A stretch of 63,830 bases of DNA, filler included, from Reclinomonas americana ATCC 50394 (lineage: Eukaryota): the NCBI GenBank assembly GCA_048213135.1. It is 17 parts of 17 records of this genome, joined end to end, with 100 filler letters (N's around TTAATTAATTAA, not from the genome) between each part and the next. Parts side by side here need not be neighbours in the genome. Positions count along the whole stretch, not along the records: positions 12,966 to 16,000 come from AFZH01016884.1; 16 more parts are not named here. One strand, written 5' to 3'. This document shows positions 12,966 through 15,615 of this stretch, one piece after another. A model generated the notes under the pieces. That model saw nothing but the letters and a program-made list of their open reading frames with translations. It searched no databases and was not told the DNA's origin. How positions within the stretch are numbered: the stretch's first letter is position 1; each line of letters opens with the position of its first letter. The position numbers were made by a program, and so were the translations under genes.

Positions 12966-12977
12966 GGTGGCTGACAT
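12966..12977 (-). CDS. Start (ATG TCA GCC ACC, MSAT) of a probable third WD40 array copy, truncated at the contig edge
   Basis: ctgacat context and the upstream block 13061-13180 match the start and upstream block of the copy beginning at 14307. Confidence 0.55.
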
Positions 12978-13212
12978 GCTCCGTTGTATTGTGCAAGGAG
13001 GGAGAGGGAGGGAGGTAGAGAGAGAACGGAGTTCGCGGGAAGAAGACAGCAAAATGTGATGAGTCCCGCGGGCTTTGGCTCGCCGCCGCTGACGACGTCG
13101 AAAGGGCAACAATACTGAGAGAAGAGTGCTCCAGCAAGAAGCTTGCCGAAGCGAGCTGTTGTGCACACAGACGTTCATTTTAAAGAAGAGAGTCTGCCAG
13201 CGGCCCAGTTTA

Positions 13213-14307
13213 TCACAAGTGCAGCTGGGGATTCGCAAGACAGCAATACACTACGACCTCGGCCTCCTCCACAATGAAGCAGCGCAGCACCATCTCTGGC
13301 AAGCAGCGCGGGTCCACGTCATCCTCGCTCGCCTCCTGCAACAGCATTTCTTGGACAGCGTGCATGGCCGAGCGCGCACAGTCGAGTTCCTGTCGCGCGA
13401 GACCGCATGGCGTCGACCACACGCGCACAATCTTGTCCCAGCCCCCACTGACAACGTGCTGACCATCTGGCGATACAGCAACAGAATGCACCCAACCAGT
13501 GTGTCCATCCAAACAACACACTTTTTCTCCGCTCGCCAGCGACCACACTCGCACAGTGTGGTCATCGCCCCCACACACAACATGTTGTCCATCGGGGGTG
13601 ACAGCGACAGAGTATATCGGCGCATCGCATCCGTGCAGCAGTTGCACTTCTTCTCCGCTTGCCAGCGACCACACCCTCACAGTCTCGTCAGCATCCCCAC
13701 TCACAACGTGTTGACCGTCGGGAGTAACGGCGACGGAATTCACCACACTTGTGTGCCCCTCCAGCCGCTGCATCTCCTCGCCACTCGACAGCGACACCAC
13801 ACGGACTGTTTTGTCACCACCGCCACTAACGGTATGCTGACCATCGGGAGTGATGACAACAGAGTACACTGCCCCAGTGTGGCCCTCATACCGTCTCACC
13901 TCCTCTCCACTCACCAACGACCACACTCGTACAGTGCTGTCCATACTCGCACTCACGACATGCTGGGAGTCACGGGTGACGGCAACAGCATACACTCCAG
14001 CAGTGTGTCCCTCCAATCGCCGCACCTCCTCTCCACTCGCCAGCGACCACACACGCACGATTGGGGCTTGACTCCCACTCACAACATGCTGGCCATCGGG
14101 AGTGATGGCGACAGACCACACCTCGTCAGTGTGTCCCTCCAGTCGTCGCACCTCAGCGCCACTTGCCAGTGACCACACTCGCACGGTCATGTCACCACTC
14201 CCACTCACGACATGCTGGCCGTCGGGGGTGACCGCGACAGAGTACACAGTACCACTGTGTCCTGCCAGCTCCCGATGGTGGAAGAGGAGAGGTGCGGAGG
14301 CTGACAT
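13213..14307 (-). CDS. Intronless 7-bladed WD40-repeat protein with a conserved C-terminal helical box (copy A)
   Basis: Seven near-identical 42-aa repeats GHxxxVxSVAVTPDGQHVVSGxxDxTVRVWSLASGEEVRRLE, then a ~60-aa tail shared with copy B. Confidence 0.92.
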   Translation of the reverse strand: MSASAPLLFHHRELAGHSGTVYSVAVTPDGQHVVSGSGDMTVRVWSLASGAEVRRLEGHTDEVWSVAITPDGQHVVSGSQAPIVRVWSLASGEEVRRLEGHTAGVYAVAVTRDSQHVVSASMDSTVRVWSLVSGEEVRRYEGHTGAVYSVVITPDGQHTVSGGGDKTVRVVSLSSGEEMQRLEGHTSVVNSVAVTPDGQHVVSGDADETVRVWSLASGEEVQLLHGCDAPIYSVAVTPDGQHVVCGGDDHTVRVWSLASGEKVCCLDGHTGWVHSVAVSPDGQHVVSGGWDKIVRVWSTPCGLARQELDCARSAMHAVQEMLLQEASEDDVDPRCLPEMVLRCFIVEEAEVVVYCCLANPQLHL

Positions 14308-14354
14308 GATTCGTAGAGTTGTGCAATGAGTATAATGAATAACAGCAGATTGTT

Positions 14355-14465
14355 GAGTCCCATGCTCGCCGCCGCTGACGACGTCGAAAGGAACAGTCTT
14401 TGGCTCTGCAGTGCTCCAGCAAGATTTTTGCCGAAGCATGTTGTTGTGCAAACAGACGTTCATTG
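14355..14465. repeat. Duplicated intergenic block of the WD40 array (second copy at about 13061-13180)
   Basis: Shared gagtccc...gctcgccgccgctgacgacgtcgaaagg...agtgctccagcaaga...tgccgaagc...tgttgtgca.acagacgttcatt. Confidence 0.85.
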
Positions 14466-14517
14466 AAATTGTTGACGAAGAGAAAAGAAAGAGTGCTGGC
14501 CTGTGGCCTCCAGCTCA

Positions 14518-15615
14518 TCACAAGCGCAGCTCGGGATCCGCGAAGCAGCGATTGACCACGACCTCGGCCTCCTCGACAATGAAGCAGCGCAGAACCATCT
14601 CTGGCAGGCACCGAGAGTCCACGTCATCCTCGATCTTCTGCTGCAACTGCATCTCTTGCACAACTTGCATGACTGAGCGCGCGCAGTCGAGTTCCAGTCG
14701 CGCGAGGCCGCATGGCGTCGACCACACGCGCACAGTCGCGTCGCCACTCCCACTGACAACGTGTTGGCCGTCGGGAGTAACGGCGACAGAACCCAACCAC
14801 CCAGCGTGTCCCTCCAATCGTCGCACCTCCTCGCCACTCGACAGCGACCACACTCGCACAGTTTTGTCATGACTCCCACTGACGATGCGCTGACCATCGG
14901 GAGTGACGGCGACAGAGTCCACCCACCTAGTGTGTCCCTCCAATCGTCGCACCTGCTCGCCACTCGCCAGCGACCACACGCGCACAGTCGCGTCGCCACT
15001 CCCACTCACAACGTGCTGACCGTCGGGAGTAATGGCAACAGAGTACACATGATCAACGTGTCCCTCCAGTCGTCGCACCTCCTCACCACTCGCCAGCGAC
15101 CACACTCGCACGATCCTCCCGCTTCCACTCATGACATGCTGACCATCGTGTGTGACTGCGACGGAGGTTATTTTCCGTAAGTGATACGCAAATCGCCGAA
15201 CCTCCTCTCCACTCACTAGCGACCACATGAGTAAAATGCCGTACCCACACCCACTCACTACATGCTGGGAGTCGGGGGTGACGGCAACATCATACACTCC
15301 AGCAGAGTGCCCCTCCATTCGTCGCACTTCTTCGCCACTCACCAGCGACCACACTCGCACAGTCTTGTCCTGGCTGCCGCTCACCACGTACTGAGAGTCG
15401 GGAGTGACGGCGACAGACCATACCTCGCCAGTGTGTCCTCGCAACCGTCGTACCTCTGCGCCACTTGCCAGTGACCACACTCGCACGGTGTCAGCACACC
15501 CACCCACAACATGCTTTCCATCGGGAGTAATGGCGACAGAGTGCACCTTATCAAAGGATGCATCGTTATGTGCAAGCACCCGCTGGTGGAAGAGGAGCGA
15601 AGGAGTGGAAGTCAT
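14518..15615 (-). CDS. Intronless 7-bladed WD40-repeat protein with a conserved C-terminal helical box (copy B)
   Basis: Seven repeats of the same consensus. N-terminus MTSTPSLLFHQRVL is paralogous to MSASAPLLFHHREL of copy A, and the tail is paralogous. Confidence 0.92.
   Translation of the reverse strand: MTSTPSLLFHQRVLAHNDASFDKVHSVAITPDGKHVVGGCADTVRVWSLASGAEVRRLRGHTGEVWSVAVTPDSQYVVSGSQDKTVRVWSLVSGEEVRRMEGHSAGVYDVAVTPDSQHVVSGCGYGILLMWSLVSGEEVRRFAYHLRKITSVAVTHDGQHVMSGSGRIVRVWSLASGEEVRRLEGHVDHVYSVAITPDGQHVVSGSGDATVRVWSLASGEQVRRLEGHTRWVDSVAVTPDGQRIVSGSHDKTVRVWSLSSGEEVRRLEGHAGWLGSVAVTPDGQHVVSGSGDATVRVWSTPCGLARLELDCARSVMQVVQEMQLQQKIEDDVDSRCLPEMVLRCFIVEEAEVVVNRCFADPELRL

What the first reader, a model, noticed from the sequence alone, without database searches (positions are those of the whole stretch)
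12966..15615. Tandem array of intronless WD40 genes with variation concentrated at binding-face positions
Seen: at least three ~1.3-kb units (ATGs at 15615, 14307 and 12977), intronless in an intron-dense genome. Each complete copy has seven highly similar repeats. Differences cluster just after GH (SGTVY, TDEVW, TAGVY, TSVVN, TGWVH, VDHVY, TRWVD, AGWLG) and around SGxxDx (SGDM, SQAP, SMDS, DADE, GWDK, SHDK), while the scaffold stays nearly fixed. Established: the same pattern of high internal conservation with diversified top-face residues characterises fungal HNWD (HET-E/HET-D) non-self receptors, which evolve by repeat shuffling. Inference: a diversifying recognition repertoire, possibly anti-parasite or antiviral, lacking the NACHT domain. 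Its origin may be retroposition or transfer from bacteria.
Basis: partly seen in the sequence, partly recalled or inferred. Interest (0 to 1): 0.7.

Follow-up and report, generated by a model that had tools for sequence, protein, structure and literature searches.

The report
Huge variable-faced WD40 propeller family
These genes belong to a family of several hundred small ring-shaped binding proteins in a single-celled eukaryote; their gripping face evolves fast while a constant tail of unknown role stays fixed, and they share their building block with the organism's immune-type receptors, so they look like a built-in recognition repertoire whose targets are unknown.

Summary
Observation mostly confirmed: two complete intronless genes (7 WD40 blades plus a ~65-aa helical tail) and the first 12 bases of a third. 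They are a small part of a large family. The tail motif has 939 exact matches in this assembly (control 0). That misses variants but counts both haplotypes, so roughly 500-1,000 genes. In 103 paralogues only blade positions 11, 12, 14, 30 and 32 are hypervariable, and these include the known top-face hotspots. omega is about 1.9 there against 0.2 in scaffold and tail. A model-free count agrees; a model with local synonymous rates gives 0.75. Unlike HNWD, blades are ~61% identical and show no within-gene homogenisation, though in-register mosaics exist. The same blade builds the genome's NACHT-WD40 NLR-like genes, down to position-specific codons. One copy, itself broken, matches a jakobid EST. 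The tail is an orphan lacking a canonical BC-box or F-box. Best reading: a cytosolic arms-race recognition repertoire with a constant docking tail. The scan noted this family before on other pieces of this genome.

The parts
14518..15615 (-). Copy A (P0001): single-exon gene, 365 aa, 7 WD40 blades plus tail
14521..14718 (-). Tail of copy A: helix, acidic loop, then the conserved RCLxExVLRCF helix
   Evidence: model of copy B
14308..14517 (-). Spacer between A and B, homologous to the B-C spacer
13213..14307 (-). Copy B (P0002): single-exon gene, 364 aa, 7 WD40 blades plus tail; AlphaFold2 mean pLDDT 89
13216..13416 (-). Tail of copy B (residues 298-364): predicted two-helix hairpin, no known family
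12978..13212 (-). Spacer between B and C
12966..12977 (-). First four codons of copy C, cut by the assembly gap
   Evidence: spacer homology
12866..12965 (.). 100-base placeholder gap; the homologous contig C158 suggests about 4 units in the array

Best explanation
The two genes are members of a lineage-specific family of several hundred cytosolic adaptor-like recognition proteins, probably in a jakobid protist. Each has one 7-blade WD40 propeller whose top face (blade positions 11, 12, 14, 30, 32) is diversified by positive selection, so different members grip different ligands, most likely proteins of viruses or intracellular bacteria. Each also has a constant ~65-aa two-helix tail under strong purifying selection that passes the bound target to one shared host partner (a ubiquitin-ligase component, an NLR, or other family members). 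The family grew by whole-gene tandem duplication, birth and death, and occasional in-register conversion between neighbours, from the same WD40 blade that forms the sensor of the genome's NACHT-WD40 NLR-like genes. Shown: family size, architecture, site-specific diversification, mosaicism, kinship with NLR blades, one transcript. Inferred: cytosolic location (no signal peptide or membrane span seen by eye), foreign ligands, and the tail's docking role and partner.
For: 939 tail-motif matches, control 0. 112 scored candidates of 3495; the 111 full-length rows are at 62-100% identity. 110 of 121 evaluable tail hits are full open 7-blade frames. omega 1.87 at the five sites, 0.22 in scaffold, 0.15 in tail, 2dL 444; 1.9-2.0 in 25 independent close pairs, 2dL 124-143. 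Second-codon-position differences at those sites 309 of 859 (36%) against four-fold synonymous differences 591 of 2735 (22%), p 2e-16, with no rise in local synonymous change at V13/D31 (26 of 156). 650 distinct four-site combinations in 700 blades. The sites match R1-2, R1 and D-1 of PMC3419727 and five of the seven HNWD positions of PMC12222747. Mosaic gene on C158: 157 of 157 bases identical to copy A, then 399 of 405 identical to copy B. 97 scored NACHT matches of 287 candidates; 18 long frames read from 20 fetched stretches yielded 226 blades with the same consensus and the same variable sites, and shared position-specific codons (0.50 against 0.32; 0 of 20000 permutations). EST-derived protein 100% identical to one copy.
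Against: With a separate synonymous rate for the five sites omega falls to 0.75, and NG86 with local dS gives only 1.06-1.19 in close pairs and 0.65 in distant ones; recombination and codon bias can inflate omega. No ligand or partner is known. The tail has a canonical BC-box in 2 of 81 members and the recalled F-box and Cul5 motifs in 0 of 81. Skp1 and Elongin C are not expanded. The tail profile does not hit the NLRs. The one transcribed copy carries an in-frame TAG. Tail conservation is partly circular, since genes were collected by the tail motif.
Confidence: 0.6

Rival explanations
1. The tail is a divergent cullin-ligase box (SOCS/VHL- or C-terminal F-box-like), and the family is a bank of substrate adaptors that send foreign proteins to the proteasome. 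This is a specific form of the best explanation.
For: Repeat domain followed by a constant C-terminal box is the layout of WSB/SOCS-box proteins (recalled). The Cul2-box pattern of PMC4878042 is matched in 63 of 81 tails. The genome has a divergent Elongin C-like gene and two Skp1 paralogues.
Against: BC-box in 2 of 81 tails; the Cul2 pattern carries little information; no F-box or SOCS profile hit in 81 members at E up to 10; the model shows two long helices, not the three short ones of these boxes.
Confidence: 0.25
2. The proteins are detached sensors or decoys for the organism's own NACHT-WD40 NLR-like receptors: they bind pathogen molecules and signal to, or titrate, the NLRs through the tail.
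For: Common blade ancestry and identical variable positions; a large NLR-like family in the same genome.
Against: The blade pools are now partly separate: an NLR blade's nearest neighbour is a stand-alone blade in 25% of cases, 50% if mixed. The tail is not found in the NLRs. No physical link was tested.
Confidence: 0.2
3. Largely neutral gene drift: tandem duplication of a stable propeller whose surface loops are free to vary, with no arms race.
For: omega 0.75-0.9 under class-specific synonymous rates; broken and interrupted copies exist (11 of 121 short frames).
Against: Replacement sites change faster than neighbouring silent sites. Other exposed loop positions are under purifying selection (omega 0.75 or less at 36 of 42 positions). 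110 of 121 frames are intact despite ~61% median identity.
Confidence: 0.12
4. Recognition of self or kin (allorecognition, mating) or of prey-derived molecules rather than of parasites.
For: HNWD domains with the same variable sites recognise self proteins (PMC1805685).
Against: Hundreds of paralogues in one genome fit many foreign ligands better than a few allelic self markers (inference); the proteins look cytosolic.
Confidence: 0.1

Closest known systems
WD40 sensor domains of Podospora anserina HNWD/NWD NLRs (HET-D, HET-E); PMC1805685, PMC12222747
   Same: 42-residue blade; diversifying selection at positions 11, 12, 14, 30, 32 in the d-a loop and b-c turn; scaffold under purifying selection; exchange between genes.
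   Different: No NACHT or HET domain; one fixed 7-blade propeller; blades ~61% identical rather than 80-100%; no clustering of blades by gene; positions 10 and 39 not selected here (omega 1.0 and 0.2); several hundred genes instead of 10; orphan C-terminal tail.
NACHT-pentapeptide-WD40 NLR-like genes of the same genome
   Same: Same blade consensus (25 of 31 consensus codons identical), same variable sites, long single reading frames.
   Different: They carry an N-terminal domain with a weak HEPN-like hit (E 0.04), NACHT and pentapeptide repeats, mostly 12-14 detected blades (range 9-15), and lack the tail.
WSB1/2 and other SOCS/VHL-box adaptors; F-box and MATH-BTB expansions of nematodes and plants (the latter recalled, not read)
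   Same: Variable repeat domain plus constant small box; birth-and-death evolution with selection on the binding face.
   Different: No canonical BC-box, Cul5 box or F-box in the tail; predicted long hairpin.
Moderately to highly repetitive prokaryote-type WD40 propellers (PDB 5yzv, 2ymu; PMC5587647)
   Same: Best structural matches (TM by target 0.97, rmsd 1.0 A, 40% identity); some metagenome proteins have blades as close to the family consensus (79-85%) as members are (83.5%).
   Different: None of the 120 listed homologues covers the tail by the tail-only search; no source organism is given for the closest ones.

Membership tests
Fungal HNWD/NWD NLRs | NACHT domain upstream of the WD40 repeats | tested here: not met
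   ORFs of 364-365 aa start at blade 1; no NACHT in the Pfam rows shown
Fungal HNWD/NWD NLRs | High internal conservation, 80-100% between repeats of a gene | tested here: not met
   median 61% protein identity, range 42-70%, 103 genes
Fungal HNWD/NWD NLRs | Concerted evolution: repeats cluster by gene and move between positions | tested here: not met
   nearest blade in own gene 6 of 719 (chance); 27 of 27 pairs at 95% or more are same-position; only in-register mosaics seen
Fungal HNWD/NWD NLRs | Diversifying selection at top-face positions 10-14, 30, 32 | tested here: met
   one model variant disagrees
Fungal HNWD/NWD NLRs | Triggers cell death on non-self recognition | not testable with these tools
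   needs experiments
SOCS/VHL-box adaptors (WSB type) | BC-box (S,T,P)LxxxC/S/Axxx-hydrophobic | tested here: not met
   2 of 81 tails
SOCS/VHL-box adaptors (WSB type) | Cullin box | tested here: inconclusive
   Cul2 pattern 63 of 81, low information; recalled Cul5 pattern 0 of 81
SOCS/VHL-box adaptors (WSB type) | Box fold | tested here: inconclusive
   tail model pLDDT 72, pTM 0.41; only generic hairpin matches, Z below 8
F-box proteins (FBXW or C-terminal F-box) | F-box motif | tested here: not met
   no Pfam F-box hit in 81 members; recalled motif 0 of 81; only a loose LP-E-hydrophobic resemblance
F-box proteins (FBXW or C-terminal F-box) | Binds Skp1 | not tested
   the genome's Skp1 genes are split by introns and contigs
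WD40 repeat proteins | Seven blades with GH...WD-type repeat and closed propeller | tested here: met

The most novel reading that the evidence does not exclude
A unicellular jakobid-like eukaryote has split the NLR design: several hundred to a thousand free WD40 sensors, descended from the same blade as its NACHT-WD40 receptors, each with a hypervariable face and one constant, previously undescribed two-helix docking module that links any bound viral or bacterial protein to a shared effector. That would be an antibody-like germline repertoire inside a single cell, and the tail would be a new adaptor box also present in other unidentified eukaryotes (P0124, P0125).
Probability: 0.3. Interest if true: 0.85.

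Novelty: new variant of a known kind. Interest (0 to 1): 0.62.

Why it matters
How protists recognise viruses and intracellular bacteria is largely open. This family gives a concrete, testable candidate: small single-exon proteins with five variable positions per blade and one invariant tail, so a single pull-down with the tail could reveal the effector pathway for hundreds of genes. It also shows the HNWD pattern of selection in a lineage far from fungi, reached without high internal conservation, and offers a natural library of several thousand propeller blades with different binding faces.

Tried and rejected
Expression: no RNA holder was listed for window 13000-15700; this is no evidence either way. 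Tail searches that gave nothing usable: Pfam, ESM Atlas, word-indexed protein search of residues 290-364 among proteins of 200-637 aa, PDB sequences, Foldseek, VIA-align (generic hairpins, Z up to 7.7), metagenome contigs (600 pattern matches, none confirmed), viral contigs (one 23-residue match in no listed ORF, taken as chance). Complex prediction of the tail with the genome's Elongin C-like frame (read through a 69-base intron, alignments not used) gave 'no answer', score 0.01; no evidence either way. A search for an intronless Skp1 in viral contigs found none. Retroposition: no poly(A) within 150 bases after the stop in 103 genes. A DGR-like adenine-only mechanism was rejected: all four bases occur at the variable codons and transversions outnumber transitions. 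Local hypermutation was rejected: silent change at V13/D31 is not raised. The propeller inside the GBF1-like Sec7 gene is of a different, divergent blade type. Literature: searches listed no paper on this family; one search did not list the F-box expansion papers. The library lacks most subscription journals and I read no supplements.

Full report
What is in the window. The - strand holds two complete single-exon ORFs, 14518-15615 (copy A, 365 aa) and 13213-14307 (copy B, 364 aa), and an ATG at 12977 followed by 12 bases before a 100-base gap. AlphaFold2 on a 30-member alignment gives a closed 7-blade propeller (pLDDT mostly above 90) and two helices at 300-326 and 336-358 (pLDDT 58-77). The best structural matches are repetitive prokaryotic and designed propellers. 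The spacers A-B and B-C are homologous, so the third unit is real. The homologous contig C158 shares both flanks at 90-96% and spans about 5.0 kb of array, about four units, partly N.

Family size. A protein search of the own genome gave 3495 candidates; 112 were scored, and the 111 full-length rows are 62-100% identical to copy B. An 11-codon pattern from the tail has 939 exact matches against 0 for the reversed control. It undercounts: arrays on C35, C37, C13, C14 and C36 carry tail variants it misses. It also overcounts loci, because Skp1 and Sec7 genes come in near-identical contig pairs, so the assembly holds two haplotypes for many loci. A fair range is 500-1,000 genes. In 70 fetched loci I found 146 tail hits: 110 full open frames (96 with an in-frame ATG, 14 without, many in a subfamily that appears to have a 5' intron), 21 with N inside, 4 cut by the locus edge and 11 short. 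Seven near-duplicates were dropped, leaving 103 genes at a median 61% identity. The sample is not random: 30 loci were best hits and 40 were chosen arrays.

Where variation lies. In HNWD numbering (H of GH = 9), entropy is 3.0-4.0 bits at positions 11, 12, 14, 30 and 32 in every blade. In the model these fall in the d-a loop, the start of strand a and the b-c turn (I could not view coordinates). PMC1805685 (passages) places its selected pairs in those two loops on the top face, PMC3419727 (passages) names R1-2, R1 and D-1 (positions 12, 14, 30) as top-face hotspots, and PMC12222747 (passages) lists 10, 11, 12, 14, 30, 32 and 39 for HNWD. 700 blades give 650 different combinations at four sites.

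Selection. A GY94-type model with fixed site classes gives omega 1.87 at the five sites, 0.96 at position 10, 0.22 in the scaffold and 0.15 in the tail (2dL 444 against omega = 1). By position: 2.5 at 12 and 14, 2.0 at 30, 1.6 at 11, 1.3 at 32, and 0.75 or less at 36 of 42 positions. The 25 closest of 51 independent gene pairs give 1.9-2.0. Against this, giving the five sites their own synonymous rate yields 0.75, and NG86 with local dS gives 1.06-1.19 in close pairs and 0.65 in the most distant. A model-free count favours selection: second codon positions differ in 309 of 859 comparisons, four-fold silent sites of the scaffold in 591 of 2735 (p 2e-16), and silent sites at the intervening V13/D31 in 26 of 156. 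274 of 463 replacements there involve two or three bases, which a single-step model absorbs as silent change; I think that explains the discordant fit, but did not prove it.

Mode of evolution. Blades within a gene are no more alike than blades of different genes (0.743, 0.743, 0.737), the nearest blade is in the same gene in 6 of 719 cases, and all 27 pairs at 95% or more are same-position blades. This is a star-like radiation from one blade followed by whole-gene duplication, not HNWD-style concerted evolution. Exchange in register does occur: the first gene on C158 matches copy A at 157 of its first 157 aligned bases and copy B at 399 of the next 405, then neither; 6 gene pairs involving 11 of 103 genes show such tracts. 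An assembly chimera is not excluded.

Kinship with NLR-like genes. Of 20 fetched stretches 18 gave long frames with an N-terminal domain, NACHT, pentapeptide repeats and 9-15 detected blades. Their blades have the same consensus and variable sites, 25 of 31 consensus codons are identical, and nucleotide identity across families is 0.73 against 0.74 within. Codon choice is shared by blade position (0.50 against 0.32; 0 of 20000 permutations), which argues for descent, not codon bias. The pools have since diverged (25% cross-family nearest neighbours, 50% if mixed). Direction of descent is not established. Some unnamed metagenome proteins have equally close blades, in line with the repetitive prokaryotic WD40s of PMC5587647 (passages), but transfer was not tested.

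The tail. A profile of 81 tails found 3 proteins among 1.84 billion representatives. P0123 is an EST-derived protein that its source assigns to the jakobid Reclinomonas americana; it is 100% identical over 116 residues to one genomic copy. So at least one member is transcribed and the organism is probably that species or very close (inference). That copy has an in-frame TAG upstream. P0124 and P0125 are degenerate propellers with the same tail; P0124 is at most about 30% identical to this genome's members over its length, so the architecture exists in other organisms. The tail matches the Cul2-box pattern of PMC4878042 (passages) in 63 of 81 members but the BC-box in 2 of 81, and recalled F-box and Cul5 patterns in none. 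Skp1 (two paralogues) and Elongin C (one match) are not expanded. Invariant charged residues suggest a constant binding surface (inference; partly circular because genes were collected by this motif).

Verdict. A real, large, actively selected family that works like the sensor part of HNWD receptors but is not a member of that family, and is not demonstrably an F-box or SOCS-box family. Most likely a cytosolic recognition repertoire with a constant docking tail (0.6). Five paper searches listed no description; supplements were not read. Earlier notes of this scan describe the same family on other pieces of this genome; in the notes I saw, the genome-wide count, the EST match, the mosaic and the codon-level link to the NLR-like genes were not given. 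Interest 0.62; new variant of a known kind.

Noticed in passing
G000:C4074, C4860, C12, C3063 and others (L088-L107, L119, L123, L128): Large family of long-frame NLR-like genes: N-terminal domain with a weak HEPN-like hit, NACHT, pentapeptide repeats, then WD40 blades of the same type, ending in a shared short C-terminal motif.
   Followed up: partly
L043 about 2000-2600 (-), L074 about 2050-2100 (+), L127 about 1474-1600 (-): The same foreign sequence end, preceded by telomere-like G-rich repeats, interrupts WD40 genes at L043 and apparently L127; in L074 a short in-frame remnant of it is left inside a blade. Looks like a mobile element that inserts into this family.
   Followed up: no
L074:704-706 (G000:C5977): The only copy with transcript evidence has an in-frame TAG in blade 6, and its neighbour has a stop in the tail.
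   Followed up: partly
window 15692-16400 (+): Intron-bearing gene head-to-head with copy A, start codons under 80 bases apart; looks like the chromatin factor EAF6 (label recalled, not tested).
   Followed up: no
window 11623-12590 (-): Last exon of an RluA-type pseudouridine synthase below the gap (label from recalled motifs, not tested).
   Followed up: no
window 47500-62550 (-): Very long Thr/Gly-rich repeat protein over many exons, ending in what looks like a phage tail-fibre intramolecular chaperone (peptidase S74-like) domain (recalled, not tested).
   Followed up: no
window 5081-10400 (-): Large Thr/Ala-rich surface protein with fibronectin-III-like repeats and a C-terminal membrane span (by eye).
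   Followed up: no
L071:1498-1869 (+): Divergent Elongin C-like gene with a 69-base in-frame intron; one relative found (P0126).
   Followed up: partly
L111:703-1938 (-), L112: Sec7 domain running in frame into a divergent WD40 propeller of another blade type.
   Followed up: partly
L045:3458-4410 (+): Two tails 350 bases apart: a duplicated tail without its propeller.
   Followed up: no
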